From an uncultured virus (IMG/VR IMGVR_UViG_3300028490_000394) (taxonomy: Duplodnaviria > Heunggongvirae > Uroviricota > Caudoviricetes): 64,000 nucleotides of DNA. The notes under the pieces were generated by a model. That model was given only the letters and a program-made list of their open reading frames with translations, ran no database searches and was not told where the DNA came from. How positions within the stretch are numbered: position 1 is the first letter of the stretch; every line of letters begins with the position of its first letter. Shown in pieces: positions 1 through 64,000 of the stretch. The stretch is taken from IMG/VR virus record IMGVR_UViG_3300028490_000394. The stretch is one strand, 5' to 3'. The position numbers were made by a program, and so were the translations under genes.

Positions 1-390
1 TTAGCACTCTCTAAAAATAGCCTTTATTGCCGGTATATCGTCGACCATAGTCAATACCCTATTTCTTTCTATTCCATTTTCATTGATTAAGTATTCATAG
101 AATTTTGTAATTGATTTGTCATTTACTTTTTTCATATCTTTTAAGTATTCATAAACTGAATATGCTATTTCATTATCTGTTTCATGTAGCTCTATACTAA
201 AGTATTTCTCTAGAAAAATATATTGTTTAAACTTTGTGAATACAAATAGTGCTGAGATATGGTTTGGATTTGATTTTCGCCTTACGTATTCTTGTAGCTC
301 TTCAAGTTTTTTTAGAGCGAAGTCTTGATAGTCTTTATCTATACGTTTGTTCTTTGTATGTTTCTTTATAATGTTTTCAAATTTTTTCAA
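1..390 (-). CDS. hypothetical protein
   Basis: 129-aa ORF with stop at 1-3; no recognisable motif. Confidence 0.6.
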   Translation of the reverse strand: MKKFENIIKKHTKNKRIDKDYQDFALKKLEELQEYVRRKSNPNHISALFVFTKFKQYIFLEKYFSIELHETDNEIAYSVYEYLKDMKKVNDKSITKFYEYLINENGIERNRVLTMVDDIPAIKAIFREC

Positions 391-392
391 GT

Positions 393-608
393 TTAATCTT
401 CCTTTCTTAAGTATACCATATGGTGTTCTGTATCATTTGTTTTGTCTCTTTTATTAGATTTGTGTCCGATTACTACTAATGGATCACAAGTTATAGCTCT
501 ATGTAGTATAGGGTTATCTACCTGTGCACCAGCACCTACCATTATAACTTTTGGATTTCTATCTACTCTTGCTTTTAAAGTTTTTAAATGTTCTGTACTT
601 CCTGGCAT
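393..608 (-). CDS. hypothetical protein
   Basis: 71-aa ORF preceded by AAAAGGA and a TATAAT box. Confidence 0.6.
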   Translation of the reverse strand: MPGSTEHLKTLKARVDRNPKVIMVGAGAQVDNPILHRAITCDPLVVIGHKSNKRDKTNDTEHHMVYLRKED

Positions 609-652
609 AAGTATCCTTTTTTCTTTTATTATAGCAGGAGTCTTCTTAAAGT

Positions 653-1093
653 CTATTTAACTACATTGTCGTAGCATACAGCAAGGGTATGATTATCTTT
701 CTGCACTCTATAATTCTAAACTACATTGTCGTAGCATACGATTGGGATAGTTGGAGTCCATTTAATACATGATTCTAAACTACATTGTCGTAGCATACTT
801 GAATTGGCTTTTAAAATTGAATCTCAGCAGATTCTAAACTACATTGTCGTAGCATACCATTACTCTCTTTATGACTAATCTTTATAGCTATTCTAAACTA
901 CATTGTCGTAGCATACCAGTAATCGGATTCTATGCAACTTCTTACTCAATTCTAAACTACATTGTCGTAGCATACTTGTTATTGTCAATAAAGTTATTTT
1001 AGAGGTTATTCTAAACTACATTGTCGTAGCATACCAATATATATAGTTATAGCAGATAGTTATAATATTCTAAACTACATTGTCGTAGCATAC
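653..1093 (-). CRISPR. CRISPR array, type I-F-like: 8 repeats of 27 bp, 7 spacers (one 33 bp, six 32 bp)
   Basis: ATTCTAAACTACATTGTCGTAGCATAC at 713, 772, 831, 890, 949, 1008 and 1067; degenerate trailer copy at 653-679. On the minus strand GTATGCTACGACAATGTAGTTTAGAAT forms a GCTAC/GTAGT hairpin followed by an 8-nt TTTAGAAT handle, like I-F CTTAGAAA. Confidence 0.97.
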
Positions 1094-1163
1094 TATAGAG
1101 AAAATAGTTAAAAGACTGGTACTCTCTTCAATATTAGACATATTAAAGAAAATACCCAAATTT

Positions 1164-1793
1164 TTATTGCTTTCTTTTTCCTTTTTTTACAAAACCATAA
1201 GAATCGACCTTCTCAGCGAGAGAATCGAAGTCTATTATATCAAAATTAGTTCTAGTAAAGAATGTCTTAAAAAAATTTCGGTTTTTATTAGAAGTAAAGG
1301 ATAGATATGGTCCATTATCCTTCATTTTCTTTTGAATGTCTTTAATCACCATATCTATTTCTTTAAATAGTTTATATGACTTAAATATTTGTTTATGTAG
1401 TGGACGTGGATTTGTCCAATTCATTTCTCTCACAAAATCTTGAAAAGAGTTTTCTGATAATTCTTTTTCATTTTTTTGTATAAATTTTAGTAAACTATTT
1501 CTATTTAGAGAAGAACCTTTATTTCTTAATAAACACCCTTCTATTTTTTCTACAGCTTCTTCTTTTATATCTCCCTGGTCTAGCATTAATATATAAACAA
1601 ATGATTCTTTTAATTCTATTAAAAAGTCCTCTTTTACATATATATCTAGTTGTCCACCATGACTTATTCCATTTAGTTTTGGAAGATCTATGAGGTATAA
1701 ATTTTCTTTTGAAGAATTATGTAACTCTTGTACTATTTGATTTATACCTGTATAGCTTTCTTCTAGTATTTTTATTGATATTTTATATATCAT
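1164..1793 (-). CDS. cas6f: divergent Cas6f (Csy4) crRNA endoribonuclease
   Basis: Last gene of the cas operon; N-terminal ELH His, PYLSFTS (compare Csy4 PFVTLRS) and C-terminal DSYGF loop. Confidence 0.7.
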   Translation of the reverse strand: MIYKISIKILEESYTGINQIVQELHNSSKENLYLIDLPKLNGISHGGQLDIYVKEDFLIELKESFVYILMLDQGDIKEEAVEKIEGCLLRNKGSSLNRNSLLKFIQKNEKELSENSFQDFVREMNWTNPRPLHKQIFKSYKLFKEIDMVIKDIQKKMKDNGPYLSFTSNKNRNFFKTFFTRTNFDIIDFDSLAEKVDSYGFVKKGKRKQ

Positions 1794-2881
1794 TATTTAC
1801 CTTTGTTTTGGAAGAGACCGCCTCTTACTAAATTCATATATACATAAAAAAGTTCTTCAGAATTTAATACTGTGCTTATCTCTTTATTTGAGTTTACAGC
1901 TTCTAATAGTTTATCTATCATAGGAAAAACTTTTTGTTCGTCACTTCTAAAGTCCTCAAAAAACTTTGTTGAGGTACCAGTCGGTTCTATTGGAATTACT
2001 AATGGATTTGCGGTATTAACGTTTAAATCGTAGAACGTGTCCACTGTTCTAATCGCATTTGATATTTTTTCTGGAGATAATCCAAAGACTGGTTCTTTAG
2101 TTGATTTTTTAAAAGAAACACATTTATACATTTCTTTTTCTTTATCGTCTTTTTTTGTTGAAAATAATTCTGAAGGATAAATATATGCTCCTCCACCTAT
2201 CATGAAAGTTGTTGTTATATTTAAAGTTAAAGACTCTATAGAATCTTGTTCTTTAACTATATATTTACTAATCAACCCTGATAATCTTTCAAATGATTCA
2301 TTTTCAGAATATAAGTCATTTGCTGCTCCTGTTTCTAAAGATAGTGCAAAAGGTGCTTTTTTATATATACGCGCATTTTCATTAAATTCTAGAGATCCTT
2401 TTTCTATTTCTCCTATTTCATTTACAACTTCAAAATCTATTTTTGTTGTTATTTTTTTAGCAAGATCTCTATTTCTAAACCCTACTGAACCATTAACTAT
2501 ATTATATGCAATTCCCATACCTACTGCACTTGTAACTATTTCATTTTCTTTAAGTTCTGTTATGATTTTGTTGAAGGCTTCTAAACTTGATACTTTTGAT
2601 ACTTTTATTTTATCTGGGATATTATTTACTCCCAGAATTGTTAATTTGTAATTTAACACAAGATCGTCTTGATCATTATTTAAGAAAACTTTTTCTCTAA
2701 TAGGTGTTGGATTTGGACCTTCTGTATCTTTCTTATGTTCTATAGCACCTTTGACCCCTACATTTATTAACTTTTCAGAGGAGATCCCTTTATTTATAAA
2801 TGCACCTTCACTATACTCAATTGCTCTTTTTATACTTAATACTGTTGGTAAATTTTGTAAACCTGTTTTTTCTTTTGCCAT
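1793..2881 (-). CDS. cas7f: Cas7f (Csy3) Cascade backbone
   Basis: LPTVLSIKR, SPEKISNAIRTVDTFY, IPIEPTG and NLVRGGLF match Csy3 motifs; start moved to MAKE after AAGGA. Confidence 0.9.
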   Translation of the reverse strand: MAKEKTGLQNLPTVLSIKRAIEYSEGAFINKGISSEKLINVGVKGAIEHKKDTEGPNPTPIREKVFLNNDQDDLVLNYKLTILGVNNIPDKIKVSKVSSLEAFNKIITELKENEIVTSAVGMGIAYNIVNGSVGFRNRDLAKKITTKIDFEVVNEIGEIEKGSLEFNENARIYKKAPFALSLETGAANDLYSENESFERLSGLISKYIVKEQDSIESLTLNITTTFMIGGGAYIYPSELFSTKKDDKEKEMYKCVSFKKSTKEPVFGLSPEKISNAIRTVDTFYDLNVNTANPLVIPIEPTGTSTKFFEDFRSDEQKVFPMIDKLLEAVNSNKEISTVLNSEELFYVYMNLVRGGLFQNKGK

Positions 2882-2885
2882 TTTT

Positions 2886-3641
2886 TTATCCTTTATGATT
2901 TGTTTCAATAATATATTGATCTTTTATTTTTTTTGTTTTCCATGAGTATTTATCATAGACCTCTTCTGTTAGCTTTTCTTTTAAGAAAGTGAATTTTGTA
3001 AATTTTATAATTGGTTCTACATAGTAATGTTCTTTTTTGTAAATAGAATCTTCTGTATTACCTTTTCCTAGAATTAACTCTCCTACACGAGATAAGGCTT
3101 TTATTCCTTTTGAACCTTTTTTTATTAAACTAGCTTCATAGATCATGTGATCTATTGAATCGAAGTTTGAATCCATTGAATATTGTGTATAACCTATTGG
3201 TCTATATATATTTTTAATGGTCGACTCTATCTGCATTTTATAGTTTATAATATTACCACCTGCAATTCTTAACTTTTTTAATATGTTAAATGCATTTAGT
3301 AAATCTTCAATCTCCAAAAATGTATGGTTCAGTTCAAATATTAGACTTACCTCAATATAACCTCTTGGCATATCTACTAAGCCGTCTGAACGTACTGGAT
3401 CCCTTGATTTCAATGTATGAGTTTTAGATTGTCCCATAAATCCATTTCTTTTATAGGTAATCATAAATCCATTACTTATTGAAAATTCTCCGTCTATTTC
3501 TTTAGAATTATTAATCTTTAATTCAATATTTTTTAATAGTGAGTGATAGACAAATGGACTTGGTAAACCATATAAAAACTCTGTTTGATAGAAATTTACA
3601 TTTACAGCATTTATATCTATTTTTATATAAGTTTTATTCAC
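2886..3641 (-). CDS. cas5f: Cas5f (Csy2)
   Basis: YGLPSP and LRIAGGNI motifs typical of Csy2; operon position. Confidence 0.85.
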   Translation of the reverse strand: MNKTYIKIDINAVNVNFYQTEFLYGLPSPFVYHSLLKNIELKINNSKEIDGEFSISNGFMITYKRNGFMGQSKTHTLKSRDPVRSDGLVDMPRGYIEVSLIFELNHTFLEIEDLLNAFNILKKLRIAGGNIINYKMQIESTIKNIYRPIGYTQYSMDSNFDSIDHMIYEASLIKKGSKGIKALSRVGELILGKGNTEDSIYKKEHYYVEPIIKFTKFTFLKEKLTEEVYDKYSWKTKKIKDQYIIETNHKG

Positions 3642-5292
3642 AACATTCCTCCCTTATTAGTTTATTTAAATCTATATAAAAAAATCTATCCTTTAAGTAA
3701 GATTCTTTAAATTGTATTTCTTCTTTTTCACTATTCACACATTTATTCCAGAATTGATTGGTATATAGAACTTCATTTGTAGAAAATAAATCTTCTAATT
3801 CCTCTTTTTCATATAGTTCAAAAATAATATTTATCTTATTTCTTAATATATTTTTAACTAATTGCTCTAAAGTTTCTGAAACTAAACGCATGTTTTTTTT
3901 GCTATATTGATTTAGTCCACCTATTGATTCATATCTTTTTTGTGCACTACTTAGATTAAAGTGTATACTTTTTAACTCTCTTGTATTCTCCATGCTTGTT
4001 AAAATAATGGATATCAATTCTTTTTCTTTTTGTTCTTTTGTTTCTGAATTATCAAATTTATTTATAAAAATATCAATTTCTTTCCCGTGAGTTAGAGAAG
4101 GTATAAATCCTTTTAATACCTTTCCTTGAGTTGATAGCATGTCTATGTTTTGTTGGTTATTTTTTAATAAATTTGAACCTTCTAAGGTATTTATCCAAAT
4201 ATTTGAAATATTATTCAAATCTTCTTCTGTAAGATACTTTGATAACATATCAAATGCTTTTTTTGAAAATATATATGTTACTTCTTCAACTGCTATTTTT
4301 TTATCTTTGATTAGTTCTAAATCTGTGAATTTATTTTTTTTTGAAAAGTTTTCTATATTTTCTTCAAGATAGTTTTTATTTTTCTTTAATTCATATAAAT
4401 GATAATTTAGTGCACTTAATAAATTCTTATTATAAAAATATATTGCAAGATTAGGAATTGAGGAAAATGTAACAAAACTATTTTCTGAGTCTATAAAGTA
4501 TGTATATTGTTTAAAATCAAAACTATTGTAATTTGGAATTGTGAAATCTTTAGTTTCTTCTTTTGATCTTTCTTTACTAAACTTTTCTAATTCATTTCTT
4601 CTATTTAAAATATCCTCTTTTTTACTTGTATTATAGAAACCTGCCCACATTCTATTTTTTAATATTGAAAAACTCTCTGATAATTTATGTCCAGATAAAA
4701 AGAAATCTTCTGATAGAGAATAACTACCTCTTACCATACTATCTGGCATGCTTTTTAATGGTAGTTTTGAATTACATAATTCTTTACAATCATGGTTATT
4801 ACTTTTTCCAAAAACATGTCTAAAATTTAACAAAGAATTCTCTAGTAAAAGGAAGGACTCACTGTTATGATTGCTATTTTTTGTTGTGAAATTTAATAAA
4901 TCTGGATAATAATTATGTATCACATTTAAGTATTTTTTAAAAAGTAAATCATAAGTTATTTTAAATTTAGTATTTGTTTTAGTTATTTCTACTTTAGCTA
5001 CATTGTCTGGAATGTCTATAAATTCTATATCTTCAATAATTTGATTTAAAATACTTCCTTCATTTGAAGGTATTAACTGACTTTTATTAATAGTTCCTTT
5101 ATATTTATATTGATTATATTCTTCTGAACTTGTTATTGACAGATCTAATATAAATAATTCTATTGAAAAATTTTTGTCTATGTAGACTCTTTTTTTTAAT
5201 AGTTTATATTTGGGATCTTGTAAAAATTTTTCTGCAGCTATAAAGAATACTTCTTCTAAATAATTTATAAAGGGTATCTTTTTTTTACTCAT
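3634..5292 (-). CDS. cas8f: Cas8f (Csy1)-like large subunit, divergent and elongated
   Basis: RHVFGKSNNHD, KQYTYF and NQQNIDML..IPSL align with Csy1 THxxKxxHPD, KQLYF and KPQNISQL..LPSL; operon position. Confidence 0.7.
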   Translation of the reverse strand: MSKKKIPFINYLEEVFFIAAEKFLQDPKYKLLKKRVYIDKNFSIELFILDLSITSSEEYNQYKYKGTINKSQLIPSNEGSILNQIIEDIEFIDIPDNVAKVEITKTNTKFKITYDLLFKKYLNVIHNYYPDLLNFTTKNSNHNSESFLLLENSLLNFRHVFGKSNNHDCKELCNSKLPLKSMPDSMVRGSYSLSEDFFLSGHKLSESFSILKNRMWAGFYNTSKKEDILNRRNELEKFSKERSKEETKDFTIPNYNSFDFKQYTYFIDSENSFVTFSSIPNLAIYFYNKNLLSALNYHLYELKKNKNYLEENIENFSKKNKFTDLELIKDKKIAVEEVTYIFSKKAFDMLSKYLTEEDLNNISNIWINTLEGSNLLKNNQQNIDMLSTQGKVLKGFIPSLTHGKEIDIFINKFDNSETKEQKEKELISIILTSMENTRELKSIHFNLSSAQKRYESIGGLNQYSKKNMRLVSETLEQLVKNILRNKINIIFELYEKEELEDLFSTNEVLYTNQFWNKCVNSEKEEIQFKESYLKDRFFYIDLNKLIREECCE

Positions 5293-7937
5293 TTTTTCTC
5301 CTTTGTTAATTTAAATCCTATATTTGTAAATTCAATTTTTAACATGTATTCTTTTTCCTTATTTATATTTATAGAAAATGTATTAAATCTTTTATATCCA
5401 TTTTCTTTTTTTAGAAATTTATTTTTCCAGGTATTAAAACCTTTAAAAATTTCTCTATTTACATTTTCTATATTCATTCCAATTATTGGACTTTCATTAT
5501 AAACCGTTTCATATTGAAAGGCATGTTCTTTATTTTTTCCTGATTTTATTTTAGGTTCTATATGCATAATATCATTATTATTATCTATATAGAATTGTTG
5601 AGTCCCTTCATTTTGTCTAAAGTCGGTATAAAAACCAAAATTAGATTCTCTTGTATTGTATACTAAAAATCTATTAAAGAAGCTTAACCCTTCAAAATCT
5701 TTTATATATGTGTCTGAAAAATTTAACTTCTTCTCTATTGCTAGGTTTTCATGTACTGCTAATAGATTTTTATTTTCGTCTTGCTCAAATATATGTTTGT
5801 TTGTTGATAAGAATTCTTCTTCTTTTACTAAATCTGATAAATCATGTAAACCTGTGTGACCAACGAATTCATTTCCTTCTTCAAAACCTGGTTGGGAATA
5901 AATTTTAGTTATCCTACCTTGTTGTAAATTAAAGTTTTTATTTAATATTACTATATTTGTATTAGTATTATTTTCTCTATATCTATGTCTATAAACTCTA
6001 CCACTACTTTGTATAATGCTTCTTGTTGACGAAGGTTCTGTTATATGCCAATCAAAATCATGATCTCTACCAACTTCTTCCACTGGGCTTGCTATTACAA
6101 TTACTATGTTATTTTTTTGAATATTATCTTTCATAAATTCTTTTTCATATAATTTATCTTTTTTTCTTTCCAGTAATATATCTAATTGTTTTTCTATATA
6201 AGAACGTTCAAGTAAAGTAAATTGCGCATGATATACTATGATTTTAATATTATGATTATGTAATTCTGGTTCAATGATTTTGATTAATGAAAATATCTCT
6301 TTTACATGTGCAATTCTTATTAACCCTGCTGAAAATTTATTTCCTTTGCTATCTACTTCATTATTGTTTTCATGTAGTTCAAGTGCGCATTGTAATATAT
6401 CTGTTTTTTTAAGATCTTTTATCTTTGTATTATTTTTTGACACCGTGTTCTTAATCACAATACTAGTAGCTTCTTTCCATGAAATTTCAAAATCCATTAT
6501 ATTTAGTCTTTTATTTGTAAAATCTGAAATATATAAGCAATTGATTTCTTTATATGTATTCTTTGCCTTTATACCATTCATAAATGCCTCATAATAGGCT
6601 TTTGCTAGTGCTGGGTATGGTGTCGCAGTACTTAGTATAAGATTGACTCCATAATAGCCTGCTAGAAAGATTAAATTTAAAACTGATTTTTGGTCTTCTA
6701 AACCTAGTTCGTCTACTTCGTCAATTATAAGGTCTGAAGTTATCAACCTTATAGTTGGATTAATATGGTTAGACCTTCTATAATCTGTGGCTTTAATCAT
6801 GTAATCAATTGTTGAAATTAAAATAGGTGTATCTAAAAAGTTCGCGACATTTCTTGAAAAATAGTCCTTATCTTTAAAATTTGACTGCCTGTCTATTGAT
6901 AATTCTGGCTCGTCTACTTTTTCTTCTTTATTATATGTTTGATATATATCTGTAATTGATTTAGAACCAATTAAAACATTTATATCTTCCTCTTTAAATA
7001 TCTTTAAATTTGTGTATGCAGTACCTGTTTGTAAAGTTAAAGTTCTTAAACCTTGTATTACTGTTAATCTATTCTTTTTGTTTATTAAACTACTATATTT
7101 TAATCCAAACCTTGTTTTCCCTGAACCTGTAGAGGACGATAGAAATGTTAATGTGGGGATATCTTTATTTATATTATCTTTTGCAAACTGTATTGACTTT
7201 TCTTGCCATTTAAATTTATCTATTTCAGTGGTTTCATGTATTATAGAGTCTAAATTTGTTTCTGACCATTTACTAAATGGATTTTTATTTTGAAAAAATA
7301 TTTCTTCTGCAAAGTTTATTTTAGAATTTACTGCTGCAATATGTTCTGAATATTTTTGATAATTATTATTTAAATCTTTTGCACTTAAATCTTTTTTATA
7401 ATTTTTATGATTATTATTGAATTTCACAGTTGATCCTATATGATCTGCTAGGATTAAAGAATTTCGGAGATCTATAATCTCATTAATTGGGATTGAAATG
7501 TTTGCTATTTTTTTTAAATCATTTTTTGCCTTATCGAAAATTTCTTTTGATATGATTCTAAAATCTTTTATTTTATCGTCCGTAAGGTTATGTAAATAAA
7601 CAAAACTAGTGTTTACAGGTATCGAACCTATATTTGATATTTCTGGAAGTCTATGGTGTGTTCCCATTATATATAGTAAGTTATATATATTTGGAGTATT
7701 TTTTCTTATTTCTTCAGAAATATATGCTGTCTTTTTTACTCTATTCTTTATAAATAATAAATAAGATTCCTCATTATATTCTTTATTTTTTATGATATAT
7801 TCAAAAATTAAAATTGTTAAATAGGAGTGATTTACTATACTTTTATATTTCTTATCTTTAAGTATTTTCTGAAAATGAAATGTATTTTTACCTAAATCAT
7901 GATACTTAGCTATAAAACTTAATATTTCTTTTCTCAA
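5289..7937 (-). CDS. cas3: type I-F Cas3 HD nuclease-helicase without the N-terminal Cas2 domain
   Basis: HDLGK, THH, LADH..SEH, STGSGKT, GLRTLTLQTG, DEVDE, EVGRDHDFDW and QSSGRVYRHR; likely start is TTG at 7937 after AAGGA, since the ORF-track start at 7994 lies inside a CRISPR spacer. Confidence 0.93.
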   Translation of the reverse strand: MRKEILSFIAKYHDLGKNTFHFQKILKDKKYKSIVNHSYLTILIFEYIIKNKEYNEESYLLFIKNRVKKTAYISEEIRKNTPNIYNLLYIMGTHHRLPEISNIGSIPVNTSFVYLHNLTDDKIKDFRIISKEIFDKAKNDLKKIANISIPINEIIDLRNSLILADHIGSTVKFNNNHKNYKKDLSAKDLNNNYQKYSEHIAAVNSKINFAEEIFFQNKNPFSKWSETNLDSIIHETTEIDKFKWQEKSIQFAKDNINKDIPTLTFLSSSTGSGKTRFGLKYSSLINKKNRLTVIQGLRTLTLQTGTAYTNLKIFKEEDINVLIGSKSITDIYQTYNKEEKVDEPELSIDRQSNFKDKDYFSRNVANFLDTPILISTIDYMIKATDYRRSNHINPTIRLITSDLIIDEVDELGLEDQKSVLNLIFLAGYYGVNLILSTATPYPALAKAYYEAFMNGIKAKNTYKEINCLYISDFTNKRLNIMDFEISWKEATSIVIKNTVSKNNTKIKDLKKTDILQCALELHENNNEVDSKGNKFSAGLIRIAHVKEIFSLIKIIEPELHNHNIKIIVYHAQFTLLERSYIEKQLDILLERKKDKLYEKEFMKDNIQKNNIVIVIASPVEEVGRDHDFDWHITEPSSTRSIIQSSGRVYRHRYRENNTNTNIVILNKNFNLQQGRITKIYSQPGFEEGNEFVGHTGLHDLSDLVKEEEFLSTNKHIFEQDENKNLLAVHENLAIEKKLNFSDTYIKDFEGLSFFNRFLVYNTRESNFGFYTDFRQNEGTQQFYIDNNNDIMHIEPKIKSGKNKEHAFQYETVYNESPIIGMNIENVNREIFKGFNTWKNKFLKKENGYKRFNTFSININKEKEYMLKIEFTNIGFKLTKEKK

Positions 7938-7955
7938 TAAAAATTCCTTTTTGTG

Positions 7956-8041
7956 TTTTTTTACTACATTGTCGTAGTATACCATGTGAAACATATCAAC
8001 TTAGCCATAGCTTAATTCTAAACTACATTGTCGTAGTGTTA
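7956..8041 (-). CRISPR. repeat-spacer-repeat mini-array in the cas3 leader
   Basis: Variant repeats at 7956-7982 (TTTTTTTACTACATTGTCGTAGTATAC) and 8015-8041 (ATTCTAAACTACATTGTCGTAGTGTTA) flank a spacer of exactly 32 bp (7983-8014). Confidence 0.9.
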
Positions 8042-8216: not shown

Positions 8217-9113
8217 ATGATAATGAAGGAATTTATACCTAAACAGGCCAGCTCTACCTCTTTTAAGAAAGGTTATGAAAATGAAAAGGACGCCGCATAT
8301 TATATTGATTTTTCTTTCAAAAATACTAAAAATTCTATTGTCTTGCATGATCTTAATTTAGAGTTTGAAGGACAAAAAGCTCAAATAGACCATTTACTTA
8401 TTTCTAGACTTGGAATTTATGTTCTTGAGAGTAAGTTCTTCAGTGGAGATATTATTATTGATTCCCATGGAGCTTGGACTGTTAAATATGGAGACAAGGA
8501 ATATAGTATCCCTTCTCCTATTGAACAGAATGATCGACATATAATGATTGTTGAAAAAATACTAAAAAAGTCCGGACTGTTTCCTTCCGTCTTAGGTCTA
8601 TCTATGCTTCCTAAAATACATAATTACATTCTACTGTCTACACAAACTAAACTTCCTGTTGAATGTCCAAAAGAAGTTATTAAACAAGATACTTTACTGA
8701 ATACTATTATTTCTCGAGGTGAATCTGATATCTTAGGGGCAATTGTTGCAATATCTAAAATTATTAGTTCTGACACTGCCATTGCAGTTGCTAATAAGCT
8801 ATTATCTTTTAACAGAGAGCCAGTACAAAAAATATCTAAAACTAAGGTAAAAATTAAAGTACCAGAGCCTGACGTATCGATAGTTGAAGAAGTACTTGAA
8901 CCAGTTACTGTTACAAAGCGTACTTTTGAAGAGCTAAAAGCAATTCGTACGGACTTATCTAAGACTTTTAAGGTTAAGGCTTATTATATCTTCTCAGATA
9001 AGACTCTTCAAGAAATATTAGAAAAGGATCCTTTAAATAAAGAAGATATGCTTAAGATACATGGTGTTGGTGAAGTTAAATTTGAAAAATATGGAAAATT
9101 CTTTTTAAGATAA
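8217..9113 (+). CDS. NERD nuclease-related domain plus C-terminal HRDC domain protein
   Basis: AQIDHLLISRLGIYVLESK and SPIEQNDRH (NERD); AYYIFSDKTL..IHGVGEVKFEKYG (HRDC). Confidence 0.85.
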   Translation: MIMKEFIPKQASSTSFKKGYENEKDAAYYIDFSFKNTKNSIVLHDLNLEFEGQKAQIDHLLISRLGIYVLESKFFSGDIIIDSHGAWTVKYGDKEYSIPSPIEQNDRHIMIVEKILKKSGLFPSVLGLSMLPKIHNYILLSTQTKLPVECPKEVIKQDTLLNTIISRGESDILGAIVAISKIISSDTAIAVANKLLSFNREPVQKISKTKVKIKVPEPDVSIVEEVLEPVTVTKRTFEELKAIRTDLSKTFKVKAYYIFSDKTLQEILEKDPLNKEDMLKIHGVGEVKFEKYGKFFLR

Positions 9114-9159
9114 GCTGTCTACAAGTATACTTATTGTATAATGCGTACAAAGGAGTCTC

Positions 9160-15508: not shown

Positions 15509-16747
15509 ATGAAAAATTTAAAAGCTGACTTTGTTATCGGGCTCCAATTCGGAGACGAAGGTAAAGGTAAAGTGATTGACTCTTTATTGAGTTCAAGTGT
15601 TAAGTATGACGGCGTCGTCAGAGGTAATGGTGCTGATAATGCAGGACACCAAATTGTTATTGGAGATAAAAAATTTACTTTACATTCTCTTCCTAGTGGA
15701 GTTCTTCAACCTGTCGTTAATATTATCGGCCCCGGTTGTGTTGTTAACCCTAATTCAATAGAAAAAGAAATTGATAATCTTGGTGAACACTTTATTGGTA
15801 CTCTTGTTATTTCTGAACGTTGCCCTCTTATTATGAAAAGACATGTTACTGAGGATCATGCTTTAGAAGCTCAGAAGGGTGAAAATTCCGTTGGTACTAC
15901 ATTAAAAGGTGTTGGCCCAGCTTATGCCTCTCTTAAGAACAGAACGGCGGTATTCGCCGGTGATTTACATGACATACCTGCTGCTTTAGAACGTTTCTTA
16001 TATCTTGAAGATAATGAGTTTGAAGATCTGAAAAAAGAGCTTACTATTTATGCGTCTAAAATTGGACAATATGTTAAAAGTATTAAACCTGTATTACGTG
16101 AGTTAAAACATATCCTTGTAGAGGGTGCACAAGCTACTATGCTTGATAATCTTTATGGTACTTACCCTTATGTTACGAGTTCTTCAACAACTGTTCCTGG
16201 TTTGCTTATGGGAATTGGTTTAAACCATACTCATGTTGGAAAAGTTTATGGTGTTATGAAACCTTACTCCGTCCGTGTTGGTAATGGACCTTTTGTTACT
16301 GAAATGGAACCTGATATGGCTCATAGAGTTAGAGTTCTTGGTAATGAAGTTGGCTCTACTACCGGTAGAGATAGACGTTGTGGGTGGACAGATTTTGTGC
16401 AATTACAAGAAGCTGTTGTTCTTAATGGTGTTACAGATCTTTGTCTTATGAAATCTGACGTTTTAGATTCTTTTGACGAAGTTCAATTCTGTACTGCATA
16501 TAAACTAGAACCAGGTGTTACTGAACTAGTCGAATACTTATCTCATGTTCCTTTTAGTTATAAAAATATAGAACCTTATTATGACACTTTTATGGTTTGG
16601 GATACTGAACTTTTTGGTAAAACTTTTACTAGAGATACTCTACCTATTCAACTCTCTACTATTATTACTTTTATTGAGCAGAAACTTGACGTTCCTGTTA
16701 CTTTCTTTTCTACAGGTCCAGAAAGAGACCAGACAAGCTTTCTTTAA
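15509..16747 (+). CDS. purA: adenylosuccinate synthetase
   Basis: QFGDEGKGK, NAGH, EGAQATMLD, YPYVTSS and TTGRDRRCGW. Confidence 0.93.
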   Translation: MKNLKADFVIGLQFGDEGKGKVIDSLLSSSVKYDGVVRGNGADNAGHQIVIGDKKFTLHSLPSGVLQPVVNIIGPGCVVNPNSIEKEIDNLGEHFIGTLVISERCPLIMKRHVTEDHALEAQKGENSVGTTLKGVGPAYASLKNRTAVFAGDLHDIPAALERFLYLEDNEFEDLKKELTIYASKIGQYVKSIKPVLRELKHILVEGAQATMLDNLYGTYPYVTSSSTTVPGLLMGIGLNHTHVGKVYGVMKPYSVRVGNGPFVTEMEPDMAHRVRVLGNEVGSTTGRDRRCGWTDFVQLQEAVVLNGVTDLCLMKSDVLDSFDEVQFCTAYKLEPGVTELVEYLSHVPFSYKNIEPYYDTFMVWDTELFGKTFTRDTLPIQLSTIITFIEQKLDVPVTFFSTGPERDQTSFL

Positions 16748-45008: not shown

Positions 45009-45512
45009 ATGTTACTTAAAGCATTTTTACTTATACTTCTCATTGGCGGAGTTGTTCTTTGGTTCACTTCTCGTAAAGAGGTTGCTGAGATTCAAGATAT
45101 TGCAGATTCTATTGAAAACGAAGGTCCAGAAGATATTGGTCTTAAAGATACAAAGCGTACAGGACGTCAAGTTAGTGGAACTAGCTCTGGCTCTAGAAAC
45201 TCTGGTCGAAAAGGTACCAATTATGACGACGATTATGACGACGATTGGGACGACGATAATACTATGTTAGCTGTTGCTGCAGCAGTTGTCCTATCTGAAG
45301 ATTCTGAAAACGACAGCATTGCTCCTAATGAAGACCCTTATGTTCCAGATCCTGTCGAGACTGAGCCTACTCAAGCTGAGATTGATTCTATTACAAGTAC
45401 TTCTTCATATGAAGATAACTCTACAACTCCTGATACTAGTTATAGTTCAGACTCTAGTTCAGACTCTAGTTCAGATTCTAGTTCAGACTCTAGTGGTGGC
45501 TCTGACGACTAA
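45009..45512 (+). CDS. membrane-anchored low-complexity acidic/Ser-rich protein
   Basis: N-terminal TM, DDDY repeats and SSDS repeats. Confidence 0.7.
   Translation: MLLKAFLLILLIGGVVLWFTSRKEVAEIQDIADSIENEGPEDIGLKDTKRTGRQVSGTSSGSRNSGRKGTNYDDDYDDDWDDDNTMLAVAAAVVLSEDSENDSIAPNEDPYVPDPVETEPTQAEIDSITSTSSYEDNSTTPDTSYSSDSSSDSSSDSSSDSSGGSDD
45443..45494 (+). repeat. 12-bp tandem repeat (TAGTTCAGACTC x4, in frame)
   Basis: Read directly; one copy has a C>T change. Confidence 0.85.
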
Positions 45513-54655: not shown

Positions 54656-55483
54656 TTACGCTAGTTGTTCTGAATACACTTCTTCTAGTGCAGTATAAAG
54701 ATCTTCTGATTCTATTAATGCTGCCATTGCTACATTATCTTCTACTTTCTTACCTTCATAGTTCCACTCTTTAATGTACGTACCTTCTTTATATCCATGG
54801 TCTTGTCTAAATTGATTTAATACGCTTTTACCGTTGTATAGTTTTACTATATCTAATGAAACTATTTCTGTAGTTATGTGTCTAAACAAAGCAATCACAT
54901 TAAAGACTAGAGCGTCGTATTCTTCTGGGAAGAACGCATTTGTTTTATTTGATCTTAATCTTGATAACATTACTGATAAAACAGTTAACTCTTCAAACGC
55001 TCTGAGTTCTTTATTTATGTTATCTGCATTTGGGTGCATTTTAGCTACTGATTCTTTTGCAAAATTATTATCGTCTTCTGCTTGAAATATATTCAATATG
55101 TGATTGGCTGTTGATTCTCTTAATCCTGCATTCCACATTTCTGACGGTGTCATTACTTTTTCCGGGCTATTTACGTCTAGTTCTTTGCTTTCTATTTCTT
55201 TATATGCAAGATCAAACATGTTTTCTATTACTAGAGACATAATGAAGTGCCAAATGTCTACTGTCTCAATGTGAACATTTGCCATATCTACTTTTTGATC
55301 AATACCTTTCCAGTGCTTCCAAGGATAACTATCCATTAATTCGATAGTTTCCATGTATATTGTTCTTGGCCAATTGATTTGTTTCCCGGACTCTGTCATA
55401 CCTAGGATCCAATCCTCTCCTGCTATACCTGCATTTAATTTAAATTGTTTATCTAGCATTTCTATTAATATATCTTTTTTCAT
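54656..55483 (-). CDS. dut: dimeric (all-alpha) dUTPase
   Basis: ELMDSYPWKHWK, IETVDIWHF, KSVLNQFRQDHGYKEGTY and EDN; Campylobacter-type. Confidence 0.88.
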   Translation of the reverse strand: MKKDILIEMLDKQFKLNAGIAGEDWILGMTESGKQINWPRTIYMETIELMDSYPWKHWKGIDQKVDMANVHIETVDIWHFIMSLVIENMFDLAYKEIESKELDVNSPEKVMTPSEMWNAGLRESTANHILNIFQAEDDNNFAKESVAKMHPNADNINKELRAFEELTVLSVMLSRLRSNKTNAFFPEEYDALVFNVIALFRHITTEIVSLDIVKLYNGKSVLNQFRQDHGYKEGTYIKEWNYEGKKVEDNVAMAALIESEDLYTALEEVYSEQLA

Positions 55484-56091: not shown

Positions 56092-56538
56092 TTAGTTTCC
56101 TGGTACTGCTGGTGCTGCTGCATTTATAACTAGAGAACCGTCTAGACAGCTATCAAATTCTACTTTTTCACTTGTATATGTTGCATTAGCTAGTGCAACT
56201 GTATAACCAGCTGAACCGTCAGTACATGTTTTAGTCGCTACTGTAATTGTATTCCCTTTAGAGAATGCTGTTCTTACATTTCCAGTTGTACATAGACCAT
56301 TGTTTTTTGTGTCTGAACCTGTTTCTCCACAAGAAATTGCTGTATATGCTTGTGCATTTGCAAATTCAGTTTGTTGTGCAATGATTGCACCTCTTGCGTC
56401 ACTCTTCATTGAGTTTGCTACCGCTACTTTTGTTGAGTCATTAAGATTTGCGATTGCAAAGCCTGCTAAGATTGAGATAATTGCCATTACGAATAGTAAT
56501 TCTACTAGGGTAAACCCTTTTTTCATTGTTGATTTCAT
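56092..56538 (-). CDS. type IV pilin / pseudopilin-like protein
   Basis: KKG|FTLVELL class III signal peptide; four Cys. Confidence 0.85.
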   Translation of the reverse strand: MKSTMKKGFTLVELLFVMAIISILAGFAIANLNDSTKVAVANSMKSDARGAIIAQQTEFANAQAYTAISCGETGSDTKNNGLCTTGNVRTAFSKGNTITVATKTCTDGSAGYTVALANATYTSEKVEFDSCLDGSLVINAAAPAVPGN

Positions 56539-57193: not shown

Positions 57194-57622
57194 ATGAAAA
57201 AAGTTGAAATGTTTGGTGACGGTAGTGCACTTGGAAATCCTGGACCTGGTGGTTATGGAACTGTTATTAAGTTTGGTAAACACGTAAAGGAGCTATCTGG
57301 CGGCTTCCCTGACACCACAAACAATAGAATGGAACTCCTAGCCTTAATTGAAGGTTTAAAAGCCTTAAAGCAGCCTTGTGAGGTTCATTTTACTAGTGAC
57401 TCTCAATATGTTGTTAAAGCTGTTAACACTTGGCTTGCTAATTGGATCAAGAAAAACTTTGCTAAAGTTAAAAATGTTGATCTTTGGAAAGAATATGTTG
57501 AGGTCTCTGCTATTCATACGGTCACCTGTTCTTGGGTGAAAGGTCATGCTGGTCATGTTGAGAATGAACGTTGTGATATCCTTGCTCGTACCGCTGCTGA
57601 AGTTGTTCGCGACTCTATGTAA
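57194..57622 (+). CDS. rnhA: ribonuclease HI
   Basis: [26 protein letters not shown] and [15 protein letters not shown]. Confidence 0.95.
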
Positions 57623-62531: not shown

Positions 62532-62610
62532 TGGGGGCAGATACTGGATTTGAACCAGTGGAATTTCTTGGGAATGAACCAAGCGAGCGACCTGACTGCT
62601 CTAATCTGCT
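62532..62610 (-). tRNA. tRNA-Met(CAT), initiator-like, atypical
   Basis: Cloverleaf, A1.C72 mismatch, loop TT-CAT-TC, encoded CCA. Confidence 0.8.
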
Positions 62611-62619
62611 ACATTTTTT

Positions 62620-62696
62620 TGGGTGCGGAGGTTGGACTCGAACCAACGACCTCTGGGCCATGAACCCAACAAGCTAACCAACTGCTCTACTCCGCG
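62620..62696 (-). tRNA. tRNA-fMet(CAT)
   Basis: C1.A72 mismatch, GGG/CCC anticodon stem, loop TT-CAT-GG, CCA. Confidence 0.9.
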
Positions 62697-62706
62697 TTAT
62701 ATTTTT

Positions 62707-62784
62707 TGGTTGCAGGTGTTGGATTTGAACCAACGACCTCTGGGTTATGAACCCAACGAGCTGACCGGACTGCTCTAACCTGCG
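62707..62784 (-). tRNA. tRNA-fMet(CAT)
   Basis: C1.A72 mismatch, GGG/CCC stem, loop TT-CAT-AA, CCA. Confidence 0.92.
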
Positions 62785-62801
62785 TTAAATTTACTCTTTT
62801 A

Positions 62802-62878
62802 TGGTTGCGGATATTGGATTCGAACCAATGACCTCTAGGGTATGAGCCTAGCAAGCTACCAAACTGCTCTAATCCGCG
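62802..62878 (-). tRNA. tRNA-fMet(CAT)
   Basis: C1.A72 mismatch, stem CTAGG/CCTAG, loop CT-CAT-AC, CCA. Confidence 0.9.
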
Positions 62879-62891
62879 TTATATGTTTTTG

Positions 62892-62968
62892 TGGTCGGAG
62901 AGAAGGGATTCGAACCCTCGTGTTCTTCTTTGTAAGAGAAGTGAATAACCATTCTTCGTCACTCGCCG
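62892..62968 (-). tRNA. tRNA-Val(TAC), atypical
   Basis: CTTCT-CTTACAA-AGAAG arm, GAGGG-TTCGAAT-CCCTT, CCA; weak D stem. Confidence 0.8.
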
Positions 62969-63041
62969 ATCGTTTGTTCATTACTACTGTAATCAACTTT
63001 AAACAGCTCACTATTTTATGAACTGTTTAAAACTGACATAT

Positions 63042-63119
63042 TGGCAGGCGCCCAGGGACTCGAACCCTGATCCTTGGGATTTGGAATCCCCTGCTCTATC
63101 CAATTGGAGCTAGACACCT
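63042..63119 (-). tRNA. tRNA-Trp(CCA)
   Basis: AGGTGTC/GGCGCCT acceptor, G73, loop TT-CCA-AA, CCA. Confidence 0.92.
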
Positions 63120-63132
63120 AAAAATTTGACAT

Positions 63133-63176
63133 AAAAAAAGGGGGAACCGGGTACTTAAGACCCGATCCCCCCTTTT
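63133..63176 (-). terminator. strong intrinsic terminator just upstream of the tRNA cluster
   Basis: GGGGGGATCGGGT-CTTAAGT-ACCCGGTTCCCCC followed by T7. Confidence 0.7.
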
Positions 63177-63192
63177 GTACATATATTACCTT

Positions 63193-63276
63193 TTAGATAA
63201 TTTGTACTCCAGAAAAAGAGCCATAAGAATTAGTTACCACAAATGTCTGCCAAGAATTTACTTTTTTCAAAACCAT
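63193..63276 (-). CDS. 27-aa leader-like peptide MVLKKVNSWQTFVVTNSYGSFSGVQII
   Basis: AAGGAG RBS; TTAAG..TATACT promoter upstream. Confidence 0.5.
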   Translation of the reverse strand: MVLKKVNSWQTFVVTNSYGSFSGVQII

Positions 63277-63387
63277 GTCTCCTTTATTTTCTGTATTTTA
63301 GAAAGTATATACCAACTAACCTTAAAGTAAGCTTAAATATACTTCCAATGTCTATTTTTTTGTTAAAATATATGAATATATCATATT

Positions 63388-63831
63388 TTATGAGGTTATA
63401 AACGAAACCTCTTCAATTCTACCACCTGTACATTTTTTGTATTCGACACCTCTTTCAACGTTCTTGTATTTCGGATTACTAACACCTATACGATATCCTT
63501 TTCCTCCACCCTGAAGTGGTGTACAGTTAAAAGTATTTATTGAAAGATTGTTTCCTTTTGATATTGCTGTTTTAAATCCTGTTTTTTCACATATCCCATT
63601 TGTATCGTCGACACCTTCTTTACAGTTTATCTTTACATAATTCCCTGTCTTAGATATAAATTGTTGTTGTGCTAGAATTGCATTTCTTGCGTCACTTTTC
63701 ATTGAAGTTAAAATTGCTACTTCTGTTGAATCATTTAGATTTGCAATTGCAAATCCTGCTAATATTGAGATTATTGCCATTACGAATAATAGCTCTACTA
63801 GGGTAAAACCCTTTTTGATTGTTTGTTTCAT
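63388..63831 (-). CDS. type IV pilin / pseudopilin-like protein (paralog of 56092-56538)
   Basis: KKG|FTLVELL; N-terminal half nearly identical to the other pilin. Confidence 0.85.
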   Translation of the reverse strand: MKQTIKKGFTLVELLFVMAIISILAGFAIANLNDSTEVAILTSMKSDARNAILAQQQFISKTGNYVKINCKEGVDDTNGICEKTGFKTAISKGNNLSINTFNCTPLQGGGKGYRIGVSNPKYKNVERGVEYKKCTGGRIEEVSFITS

Positions 63832-63946
63832 TGAAAACTCCTGTTATTTATTTATCTATATATACTATAAAATAAAAATTTCGGAGGTTAACCTAGCTCT
63901 AAGTACAGTTTTGGTATAATATATTATATAAATTAAAGGAGACTTC

Positions 63947-64000
63947 GTGTCTAAAAAACTTATTCTACAAGCATTCAAATTAGGTAATGCTACGTCACAC
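63947..64000 (+). CDS. partial ORF (runs off the window)
   Basis: GTG after AAGGAG and a TAAG..TGGTATAAT promoter. Confidence 0.5.
   Translation, partial: MSKKLILQAFKLGNATSH

What the first reader, a model, noticed from the sequence alone, without database searches (positions are those of the whole stretch)
1..64000. Apparent elimination of GATG/CATC, enforced through codon choice
Seen: Asp is GAT except before a G, where it becomes GAC. For example 45224-45260 reads GAC GAC GAT TAT GAC GAC GAT TGG GAC GAC GAT AAT, and cas3 DEVDE is GAC GAA GTA GAC GAA on the other strand. I found no GATG or CATC in the stretches read closely (about 1-2.9, 5.3-9.1, 15.5-16.7, 23.7-25.2, 51.3-53.4 and 57.6-58.6 kb), while GATA, GATT, GATC and CATG are common. 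Known: GATG is the core of FokI (GGATG), SfaNI (GCATC) and BccI (CCATC) sites. Inference: strong selection against an asymmetric 4-mer, from a host restriction-type system or from an element-encoded nuclease that spares its own DNA. The cas locus follows the rule, so it is a long-term resident.
Basis: partly seen in the sequence, partly recalled or inferred. Interest (0 to 1): 0.75.

Follow-up and report, generated by a model that had tools for sequence, protein, structure and literature searches.

The report
Giant element that has purged GATG
A giant phage-like DNA element has removed every copy of the four-letter word GATG from both strands, even giving up two amino-acid pairs to do so, which most likely lets it escape a DNA-cutting enzyme that recognises that word.

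Summary
The 64,000-base window holds 0 GATG/CATC against about 297 expected; the next most depleted 4-mer has O/E 0.63. The word is missing from all three reading frames on both strands and from intergenic DNA. Avoidance runs through synonymous codons. It also reaches the proteins: Met-Met and Trp-Met, which cannot be written without GATG, do not occur.

It is not a base-calling or assembly artefact. Four distantly related metagenome loci also have 0 sites, while three equally related loci have normal or raised counts.

The window's best named gene matches are Campylobacterota. All 28 chromosomal loci tested from that candidate host phylum have O/E above 1.

Total loss of a 4-mer is common in viral DNA, but in 165 control loci it only ever hit palindromes.

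A restriction system that cuts exactly GATG/CATC was first shown in 2026 (MhoVII of Mycoplasma hominis, PMC12898733).

Best reading: restriction-site avoidance of an unusual asymmetric 4-bp site. Who encodes the nuclease, host or element, remains open. This is a new variant of a known kind.

The parts
1..64000 (.). Whole window: GATG/CATC-free DNA of a giant extrachromosomal element, probably a huge phage. The contig is 431,381 bp according to the protein database.
   Evidence: 0 sites against 297.1 expected. GC is 24-33% in 4-kb windows.
641..1100 (-). CRISPR array: 8 repeats of about 28 nt spaced 59-60 nt apart, downstream of the last cas gene.
   Evidence: GATG/CATC 0 against 1.9 expected.
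1164..7994 (-). Type I-F effector operon without adaptation genes: cas3f (5289-7994), a 552-aa gene at the Cas8f position with no family hit (3634-5292), cas5f (2886-3641), cas7f (1793-2908), and a 209-aa gene at the Cas6f position with no family hit (1164-1793).
   Evidence: Pfam, NCBIfam and PADLOC hits. GATG/CATC 0 against 26.5 expected; GC 25.1%.
6708..6722 (-). cas3 DEVDE motif written GAC GAA GTA GAC GAA.
8217..9113 (+). NERD (nuclease-related) plus HRDC domain protein, divergent from cas3. Besides Cas3 it is the only nuclease-like candidate of unknown specificity in the window.
   Evidence: Pfam NERD 1.4e-21 and HRDC 1.3e-17. No relative was found in the other GATG-free loci.
15509..16747 (+). 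Adenylosuccinate synthetase (PurA). It served as a host clue and as an artefact control; its conserved RRCGW motif is intact.
   Evidence: Pfam 6.5e-118. Best named cellular relatives are Caminibacter/Nautiliaceae at 41-42% identity. Motif check.
23702..25225 (+). Conserved 507-aa membrane-anchored beta-propeller-like protein, used as the marker to find related elements.
45224..45260 (+).
54656..55483 (-). Dimeric dUTPase of the type NCBI names 'dUTPaseEpsil' (host clue).
   Evidence: NF049964 at 7.3e-44, below that family's curated cut-off (149.9 against 300 bits).
57194..57622 (+). RNase HI (host clue).
   Evidence: Pfam 5.3e-40. All 8 named proteins among the best 120 hits are Sulfurimonas sp., at 62-67% identity.
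62532..63119 (-). tRNA cluster: four tandem tRNA-Met(CAT), then tRNA-Val and tRNA-Trp.
   Evidence: One tRNA-Met (window about 62,700-62,789) is 81-86% identical in DNA to Nautiliaceae tRNA genes.

Best explanation
The window is part of a giant extrachromosomal element, most likely a huge phage of Campylobacterota, that has been under long and strong purifying selection against the double-stranded word GATG/CATC.

The most likely agent is a restriction endonuclease with a 4-bp asymmetric site like that of MhoVII. It would be carried by the host population or by resident mobile elements in it, and would cut any unmethylated GATG/CATC in entering DNA.

Each site lost raises the chance of surviving entry, so sites were removed one at a time:
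- GAT-G became GAC-G.
- CAT-C became CAC-C.
- C-ATC became C-ATT or C-ATA.
- NNG-ATG became NNA, NNT or NNC before ATG.
- xGA-TGx and xCA-TCx were recoded.
- Met-Met and Trp-Met were replaced at the protein level.

What is shown: complete, frame-independent and strand-independent absence; its recurrence in relatives; and its absence from the tested chromosomal loci of the candidate host phylum. What is inferred: that a nuclease is the agent, and that the host side encodes it.
For: 1. The window has 0 sites against 297.1 expected, and no other 4-mer falls below O/E 0.63.

2. Avoidance occurs in all frames of both strands, each through its own synonymous route, and in intergenic DNA (0 against 29.9). 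This points to recognition of duplex DNA rather than a translation effect.

3. There is a protein-level cost. In 31,614 residues of the five GATG-free stretches, Met-Met is 0 (17.4 expected) and Trp-Met is 0 (5.3 expected), while the reverse pair Met-Trp occurs 9 times. Relatives that contain GATG, and Campylobacterota chromosomal loci, have both pairs at expected levels.

4. Four loci that share only a 36-46% identical marker protein and almost no other genes also have 0 sites (59.5, 37.0, 11.5 and 57.5 expected). Three equally distant loci have O/E above 1, and one of these bears the same dataset prefix as a GATG-free one.

5. The candidate host phylum is not depleted: 16 of 16 loci next to purA (14 titled Nautiliaceae or Nautiliales, 2 other Campylobacterota) have O/E 1.08-1.80, and 12 of 12 twenty-kb stretches of Campylobacterota genomes have O/E 1.09-1.47.

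6. Total loss of a 4-mer is a familiar signature of restriction avoidance:
   - 13 of 80 IMG/VR loci have a 4-mer at O/E below 0.05.
   - Campylobacter phage CP220 has CATG 4 against 79.1 expected in its first 50 kb.
   - Rusinov et al. 2018 (PMC6286503, abstract and passages) report complete or near-complete elimination in about a tenth of viral genomes, mostly for orthodox Type II sites.

7. An orthodox-style Type II system that methylates GATG and CATC and cuts the unmethylated site has been shown by experiment (PMC12898733; abstract, sections 2.1 and 3 and passages).
Against: - No host has been identified. No spacer-like match to window positions 8,001-64,000 was found in 30 Nautiliaceae genomes, and the CRISPR repeat was not found in the genome collection.
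- The host clues are gene similarities only: PurA 41-42%, RNase HI 62-67%, a dUTPase family hit below its cut-off, and tRNA-Met 81-86%.
- No GATG-specific system was found on the host side. In 401 sampled Campylobacterota genomes, among the 150 best of about 457 D12 methyltransferase matches listed, only one lies in a long fused open frame. It sits next to an AlwI-family endonuclease, which is not the MhoVII type. In 30 Nautiliaceae genomes every D12 match over the family cut-off lies in an open frame of at most 357 aa.
- Restriction systems are usually patchy among strains. Here the state is all-or-nothing and is kept in very divergent elements, which calls for an unusually constant pressure.
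- Only 64 kb of a 431-kb contig was seen.
Confidence: 0.6

Rival explanations
1. The element itself encodes a nuclease that cuts GATG. It uses the nuclease to shred the host chromosome or competing phages, both rich in GATG, and is spared because it has no site. This would be self/non-self discrimination by absence of a motif rather than by base modification.
For: - Host-phylum chromosomal loci and GATG-containing relatives are enriched in GATG (O/E 1.1-1.8), so such a nuclease would be devastating to them.
- The all-or-nothing state and its stability across divergent elements fit an intrinsic cause.
- No DNA methyltransferase is seen in the window.
- The window encodes a NERD+HRDC nuclease-like protein, and GATG-free locus L003 encodes an Mrr_cat nuclease-like protein.
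Against: - No nuclease is shared among the GATG-free loci.
- The evolutionary route is hard. The element would have to be nearly site-free, or methylated, before acquiring the nuclease, and methylation would remove the pressure to purge sites.
- I recall no precedent for this. No literature search was aimed at it.
- Only about 15% of the contig was examined.
Confidence: 0.12
2. Another sequence-directed process on duplex DNA selects against GATG. Examples: an uncharacterised defence of the phosphorothioate, BREX or Dpd kind with a 4-bp motif, or a replication, packaging or transcription signal of the element that must be unique.
For: The data show only that duplex GATG/CATC is intolerable. They do not show what reads it. 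Most genes in the window have no known family.
Against: - I know of no such system with this motif.
- A signal of the element's own would not be expected to be strand-symmetric.
- It would not be expected to be lost cleanly in some relatives, which reach O/E above 1.
Confidence: 0.15
3. Mutational bias: a motif-directed deaminase or repair process destroys GATG without any selection on the word.
For: GACG/CGTC (O/E 1.98) and GGTG/CACC (1.44) are enriched.
Against: - A mutation bias would change proteins wherever the change is non-synonymous and would leave sites where every change is harmful. Instead each frame uses its own synonymous escape, and the count is exactly 0 in 116,867 bases of five stretches (462.6 expected).
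- 136 of the GACG occurrences are in-frame Asp codons.
Confidence: 0.03
4. Artefact: a modified base at GATG is misread, or assembly or trimming removes the word.
For: None found.
Against: - A T-to-C misreading predicts excess ACG after G-ending codons (observed 9 of 108 Thr codons, against 63 of 1,037 overall) and excess GTC after C-ending codons (10 of 82, against 108 of 1,049). Neither is seen.
- xGA-CGx is enriched (20 observed, 6.9 expected), but these are genuine Arg-Arg and Gly-Arg pairs, including the conserved PurA RRCGW motif.
- At the column where 14 of 120 PurA homologues have Met-Met, the window has the common Leu-Met.
- Four contigs from other records show the same absence, while a contig with the same dataset prefix as one of them does not.
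Confidence: 0.01

Closest known systems
Restriction-site avoidance in virulent phages (complete elimination of short Type II sites)
   Same: The site is lost completely from a large genome through synonymous change and is not depleted in the host. In my own controls, 13 of 80 IMG/VR loci have a 4-mer at O/E below 0.05, and Campylobacter phage CP220 has CATG 4 against 79.1 expected. Rusinov et al. 2018 (PMC6286503, abstract and passages) report complete or near-complete elimination in about a tenth of viral genomes. The absence of GATC from Staphylococcus phage K is recalled and was not checked here.
   Different: The word here is non-palindromic. In 165 control loci, every near-total 4-mer loss (16 in 80 viral loci, 24 in 85 other loci) was a palindrome, and none was asymmetric. 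The purge also forbids two dipeptides, and it occurs in an element with a 431-kb contig, where roughly 2,000 sites would be expected by extrapolation.
MhoVII restriction-modification system of Mycoplasma hominis (PMC12898733)
   Same: Its specificity matches the missing word exactly. Fused M1/M2 m6A methyltransferases modify GATG and CATC, and the endonuclease cuts only unmethylated sites (abstract, sections 2.1 and 3, passages).
   Different: It is known only in mollicutes, whereas the element's gene similarities point to Campylobacterota. No MhoVII-type gene was recognised in the window or in the Campylobacterota genomes sampled. I could not search with the MhoVII sequences themselves.
Type IIS enzymes with a GATG core
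   Same: They have asymmetric sites that contain GATG/CATC. FokI GGATG is stated in PMC12898733. SfaNI and BccI are recalled.
   Different: Avoiding these 5-mers would leave GATG in other flanking contexts. Here all contexts are gone, so the unit recognised is the 4-mer.
Self-sparing host-DNA degradation by T-even phages (modified cytosine protects phage DNA from its own nucleases); recalled knowledge
   Same: This is the logic of the rival reading: the element's own nuclease attacks DNA that differs from its own.
   Different: In T-even phages the distinction is a modified base. Here it would be the absence of a sequence word. No such nuclease was identified.

Membership tests
Restriction-site avoidance by a phage or mobile element | The word is strongly under-represented against a composition-aware expectation. 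| tested here: met
   0 against 297.1 expected; the next lowest 4-mer has O/E 0.63.
Restriction-site avoidance by a phage or mobile element | Avoidance acts on duplex DNA: both strands, all frames and non-coding DNA. | tested here: met
Restriction-site avoidance by a phage or mobile element | The word is the recognition site of a restriction system present in the host. | tested here: inconclusive
   A system with this site exists (PMC12898733), but the host is unidentified and no such system was found in the sampled Campylobacterota.
Restriction-site avoidance by a phage or mobile element | The host chromosome is not depleted in the same way. | tested here: met
   28 of 28 loci of the candidate host phylum have O/E of at least 1.08. 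The host assignment itself is tentative.
MhoVII-type R-M system (as the agent) | A fused YhdJ-type plus D12-type adenine methyltransferase with an MhoVII-family endonuclease, in the host or on the element. | tested here: inconclusive
   The window has no methyltransferase or restriction-gene hit. In 30 Nautiliaceae genomes every D12 match over the family cut-off lies in an open frame of at most 357 aa. In 401 Campylobacterota genomes, one long frame was seen among the 150 of about 457 matches listed; it has two D12 stretches and sits beside an AlwI-family endonuclease. The MhoVII sequences themselves were not available to search with.
Huge phage (genome over 200 kb) | Genome or contig longer than 200 kb. 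| tested here: met
   The database lists a longest contig of 431,381 bp for the window's own proteins.
Huge phage (genome over 200 kb) | Phage hallmark genes: major capsid, portal, terminase, tail. | tested here: not met
   None was recognised in the window with Pfam on 93 ORFs or PHROGs on 45. The only hit is a ClpP-type protease that also matches head-maturation protease families. The other 85% of the contig was not seen, so 'phage' remains probable but unproven.
Huge phage (genome over 200 kb) | Accessory traits typical of huge phages: tRNA arrays, CRISPR-Cas without adaptation genes, translation and nucleotide-metabolism genes, mostly orphan genes. | tested here: met
Type I-F CRISPR-Cas | cas3f, cas5f and cas7f with a roughly 28-nt repeat array, plus cas1 and the cas2-cas3 fusion. 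| tested here: inconclusive
   Cas3f 2.6e-112, Cas7f 6.3e-29 and Cas5f 9.7e-10, with 8 repeats. No cas1 or cas2 was found in the window, and the genes at the Cas8f and Cas6f positions hit no family.

The most novel reading that the evidence does not exclude
A clade-spanning set of giant elements of Campylobacterota-like hosts keep their genomes free of GATG because they themselves deploy a 4-bp GATG-cutting nuclease against host and rival DNA. This would be self-recognition by absence of a word: a new mode of host takeover or inter-element warfare that also constrains the proteome (no Met-Met, no Trp-Met).
Probability: 0.12. Interest if true: 0.85.

Novelty: new variant of a known kind. Interest (0 to 1): 0.62.

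Why it matters
Complete avoidance of an asymmetric 4-bp word has, as far as my searches show, not been described for phages. In some searches the only paper on GATG/CATC as a restriction target was the 2026 MhoVII study.

The finding matters in four ways:
- It predicts that a GATG/CATC-specific nuclease is widespread and persistent in an uncultivated host lineage far from mollicutes. This can be tested by methylome sequencing and by cloning.
- It shows that avoidance can reach into protein sequence by forbidding two dipeptides.
- It is extreme in scale: about 2,000 expected sites on a 431-kb contig, by extrapolation from the window.
- It suggests a general method: word-absence profiles of viral contigs can reveal the specificities of unknown defence systems.

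Tried and rejected
- **Whole genome.** None is held for the window, so the other 367 kb could not be counted.
- **Counting GATG in whole related records.** The pattern was too short for the genome search. The metagenome records are not held there and could not be fetched further.
- **Phage collections.**
  - No nucleotide match for window 15,000-27,000.
  - The helicase finds only Salicola phage SCTP-2, at 41% over 40% of its length.
  - The dUTPase finds 9 unrelated phages at 26-28%.
  - IMG/VR holds no relative of the helicase or the 507-aa protein.
- **Earlier findings of this scan.** None.
- **Host search.**
  - The CRISPR repeat pattern has 0 hits in genome contigs.
  - Window positions 8,001-64,000 against 30 Nautiliaceae genomes give only PurA, RNase H, tRNA and short AT-rich matches, with no spacer-like hit. 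Positions 1-8,000 were not searched.
  - Cas7f has no match in 5 of those genomes.
  - The 507-aa family was not found in 401 sampled Campylobacterota genomes.
- **Sequencing runs.** None was listed, so no read-level check was made.
- **Family tree of the 507-aa protein** (20 rows, P0003 left out). The backbone is unresolved, so one origin or several of the GATG-free state cannot be told apart.
- **Fold of the 507-aa protein** (pLDDT 76). It has N-terminal helices and a beta-propeller-like body. PDB matches have TM-scores of at most 0.25, so it is no phage hallmark.
- **A nuclease shared among GATG-free loci.** None found.
- **MhoVII-like methyltransferase fusion in Campylobacterota.** Only an AlwI-type system was found.
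- **Artefact and mutation-bias readings.** Rejected.

Full report
**1.

The window (64,000 bases, 31% G+C) contains no GATG and no CATC. A second-order Markov model expects 297.1 occurrences on the two strands and base composition expects 358.7. The Poisson probability of zero is about 10^-129.

Nothing else is comparable. The next most depleted of the 136 strand-merged 4-mers is CCGA/TCGG at O/E 0.63. The most enriched are one-letter neighbours of the missing word:
- GACG/CGTC: 1.98
- GGTG/CACC: 1.44
- CATG: 1.43
- GATA/TATC: 1.32

**2. How the word is avoided**

I called 93 genes crudely (54,705 coding bases) and counted each context that could produce the word.

| Context | With the word | Without it |
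|---|---|---|
| Asp before a G | GAT 0 | GAC 136 (elsewhere GAT 635, GAC 194) |
| His before a C | CAT 0 | CAC 15 |
| Ile after a C-ending codon | ATC 0 | ATT 78, ATA 51 |
| Codon before ATG (374 cases) | G-ending 0 (about 46 expected) | all 374 |
| Gly/Arg before Cys/Trp (24 pairs) | xGA 0 | all 24 |
| Ser/Pro/Thr/Ala before Ser (252 pairs) | xCA with TCx 0 | all 252 |

- Intergenic DNA (9,441 nt) has 0 sites against 29.9 expected.
- The type I-F cas operon has 0 against 26.5.
- Two dipeptides cannot be written without GATG: Met-Met (ATG ATG) and Trp-Met (TGG ATG). In the window they occur 0 times against 7.7 and 2.3 expected.
- Over all five GATG-free stretches (31,614 residues) they occur 0 times against 17.4 and 5.3 expected, while Met-Trp occurs 9 times.
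- Related loci that contain GATG have 5 and 1 in 6,491 residues. Campylobacterota chromosomal loci have 53 and 14 in 71,427 residues.

So the constraint acts on duplex DNA, in every frame and outside genes, and it is strong enough to change proteins.

**3. It is not an artefact or a mutation bias**

- A systematic misreading of the T as C would turn G|ATG into G|ACG and C|ATC into C|GTC. Neither is enriched: ACG is 9 of 108 Thr codons after G, against 63 of 1,037 overall; GTC is 10 of 82 after C, against 108 of 1,049 overall.
- xGA|CGx is enriched (20 against 6.9), but these are true Arg-Arg and Gly-Arg pairs, including the conserved RRCGW motif of PurA.
- At the PurA column where 14 of 120 homologues have Met-Met, the window has Leu-Met, the second commonest state.
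- 136 of the in-gene GACG occurrences are in-frame Asp codons. Each frame therefore escapes by its own synonymous route, which a single misreading or a motif-directed mutation would not produce.

**4. What the replicon is**

The window's own proteins lie on a contig of 431,381 bp. The window carries:
- a type I-F effector operon (cas3f, cas5f, cas7f, and two genes at the Cas8f and Cas6f positions that hit no family) with an 8-repeat array and no cas1 or cas2;
- a cluster of four tRNA-Met, one tRNA-Val and one tRNA-Trp, plus a marginal seventh tRNA at 14722-14794;
- ribosomal protein L9, dCTP deaminase, PurA, a ClpP-type protease, RNase HI, a dimeric dUTPase, a Suv3-like helicase, two viperin-like radical SAM proteins and two pilin-like proteins;
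- a large majority of genes with no known family.

This profile is typical of huge phages. However, no capsid, portal, terminase or tail gene was recognised in the window, so 'huge phage' is probable rather than shown. No DNA methyltransferase or restriction gene was recognised.

**5. Relatives**

The conserved 507-aa protein (23702-25225) has no relative in IMG/VR. It has 14 strong relatives in the protein database and 16 loci in metagenome contigs.

| Locus | Marker identity | GATG/CATC |
|---|---|---|
| L001 | 36-46% range | 0 (59.5 expected) |
| L003 | 36-46% range | 0 (37.0 expected) |
| L004 | 36-46% range | 0 (11.5 expected) |
| L005 | 36-46% range | 0 (57.5 expected) |
| L002 | 35-38% range | 16 (11.9 expected) |
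| L006 | 35-38% range | 8 (5.3 expected) |
| L007 | 35-38% range | 214 (134.4 expected) |

- The nine more distant loci (L008-L016) have O/E between about 0.8 and 1.5.
- L007 bears the same dataset prefix as the GATG-free L003.
- Together the five GATG-free stretches span 116,867 bases with 0 sites against 462.6 expected.
- They share almost no other gene with the window, and their G+C ranges from 21% to 31%.
- The family tree has an unresolved backbone, with GATG-free and GATG-containing rows interleaved, so one origin or several cannot be told apart (P0003 left out).
- Among 24 phage-like PurA relatives, 9 contain Met-Met or Trp-Met and therefore GATG. The trait is not universal in the wider group.
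- No intermediate state was seen.

**6.

Host clues from gene similarity:
- After 24 unnamed metagenome proteins (the window's own plus 23 at 48-60% identity), the best named PurA relatives are all Caminibacter, Nautiliaceae or 'Epsilonproteobacteria', at 41-42%.
- All 8 named proteins among the best 120 RNase HI hits are Sulfurimonas sp., at 62-67%.
- The dUTPase hits the NCBIfam family 'dUTPaseEpsil' at 7.3e-44, below its curated cut-off.
- One tRNA-Met is 81-86% identical in DNA to Nautiliaceae tRNA genes.

These point to Campylobacterota, weakly at family level.

Chromosomal DNA of that phylum is not depleted:
- 16 of 16 loci around purA have O/E 1.08-1.80 (14 are titled Nautiliaceae or Nautiliales, 2 other Campylobacterota). 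None of the 80 loci from that call is below 0.5.
- 12 of 12 twenty-kb stretches from the genomes with the best RNase H matches have O/E 1.09-1.47.

No spacer-like match to window positions 8,001-64,000 was found in 30 Nautiliaceae genomes, and the CRISPR repeat was not found in the genome collection.

**7. How unusual it is**

I used 80 IMG/VR loci that carry purA as a control.
- Their GATG/CATC O/E ranges from 0.90 to 1.60, with a median of 1.18.
- 13 of the 80 have some 4-mer (at least 15 expected) at O/E below 0.05.
- All 16 near-total losses in these loci, and all 24 in 85 other loci of at least 8 kb, are palindromes: GGCC, ACGT, GATC, TCGA, GTAC, CCGG, CATG, CTAG and GCGC. None is asymmetric.
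- Campylobacter phage CP220 (first 50 kb) has CATG 4 against 79.1 expected and GATG at O/E 1.14.

Rusinov et al. 2018 (PMC6286503, abstract and passages) report complete or near-complete elimination of sites in about a tenth of viral genomes, almost always for orthodox Type II systems.

So total loss of a 4-mer is a familiar signature of restriction avoidance. An asymmetric word is what is new.

**8. A matching enzyme exists**

PMC12898733 (Int J Mol Sci 2026; abstract, sections 2.1 and 3, passages) reports the following for the MhoVII system of Mycoplasma hominis:
- It has a fused YhdJ-type plus D12-type m6A methyltransferase that modifies GATG and CATC.
- It has a separate endonuclease that cuts only the unmethylated sites.
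- The authors call this the first experimental proof of a system acting on this motif.
- They state that only 2 of 530 Type IIS motifs in REBASE are 4 bp long, and that only five methyltransferases are assigned to GATG/CATC.

Three literature searches found no report of GATG avoidance in phages.

I could not search with the MhoVII sequences. By domain architecture:
- 13 of 30 Nautiliaceae genomes have D12 methyltransferase matches over the family cut-off, all in open frames of at most 357 aa.
- Among 401 Campylobacterota genomes, the 150 best of about 457 matches listed include one long frame. It is a double-D12 fusion next to an AlwI-family endonuclease, which is not the MhoVII type.

**9. 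Reading**

The best explanation (0.6) is restriction-site avoidance driven by a nuclease of MhoVII-like specificity in the host population.

The rival (0.12) is that the element carries the nuclease and is spared by lacking the word.
- For it: the all-or-nothing, long-kept state.
- Against it: no shared nuclease was found, and the evolutionary route is difficult.

Another duplex-reading process remains possible (0.15). Mutation bias (0.03) and artefact (0.01) are disfavoured.

**10. Verdict**

The mechanism is of a known kind with an unusual target: a new variant of restriction avoidance. It makes a sharp and testable prediction about an undiscovered GATG-specific nuclease in or around uncultivated Campylobacterota.

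Noticed in passing
window 641-7994 (minus strand): Type I-F CRISPR-Cas effector set with an 8-repeat array but no cas1 or cas2. Its Cas3 (901 aa) lacks the Cas2 fusion usual in I-F. G+C is 25%, against 31% for the window.
   Followed up: partly
L133 (Campylobacter phage CP220, FN667788.1, bases 1-50000): CATG is almost eliminated (4 observed, 79.1 expected), while GATG is normal (O/E 1.14). This is a palindromic counterpart in a cultured Campylobacterota phage.
   Followed up: no
L134-L213 (80 IMG/VR loci carrying purA): 13 of 80 loci have a palindromic 4-mer (GGCC, ACGT, GATC, TCGA) at O/E below 0.05 with at least 15 expected.
   Followed up: partly
window 62532-62878 (minus strand): Four different tRNA-Met(CAT) genes in tandem, followed by tRNA-Val and tRNA-Trp. 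There is a marginal extra tRNA match at 14722-14794 (30.4 bits, threshold 29).
   Followed up: no
window, all called genes: The codon pair xGA|CGx is enriched (20 observed, 6.9 expected). Arg-Arg and Gly-Arg are written AGA-CGT and GGA-CGT rather than with a second AGA (12 against 17.1). The cause is unknown; it might be avoidance of another word such as GAAGA.
   Followed up: no
window 23702-25225: The 507-aa protein, conserved across these elements, has N-terminal helices, a beta-propeller-like body and a C-terminal helix (pLDDT 76). It has no convincing PDB match. Its nearest Atlas structures are bacterial clusters auto-named 'CvpA family protein'.
   Followed up: partly
window 8217-9113: A NERD nuclease-related domain fused to an HRDC domain, divergent from cas3. 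Its HRDC part resembles the C-terminus of RecQ and DpdF.
   Followed up: partly
window 34430-35197, 45818-46459, 47664-48485: A metallo-beta-lactamase fold protein with a sub-threshold match to anti-Pycsar Apyc1, and two radical SAM proteins with viperin-like matches. These may be defence or counter-defence genes.
   Followed up: no
window 56092-56538 and 63388-63831 (minus strand): Two type IV pilin-like proteins with the prepilin N-terminal methylation motif on the element.
   Followed up: no
L003 1740-2402, 8626-9336, 11554-12693: This GATG-free relative encodes an Mrr_cat nuclease-like protein, a SIR2 protein and an IS605-type TnpB. The insertion sequence is GATG-free as well.
   Followed up: no
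L001 and L005: GATG-free relatives carry many cell-like genes: GyrB, the ribonucleotide reductase small chain, NAD kinase, a Na+/H+ exchanger, cytochrome b561, a glycine transporter and a GGDEF cyclase. The elements may therefore not all be phages.
   Followed up: no
L226 (G341:C1:3004001-3018000) 6731-10367: A Campylobacterota genome carries a double-D12 fused methyltransferase (635 aa) next to an AlwI-family endonuclease (575 aa), beside an IS1595 transposase.
   Followed up: partly
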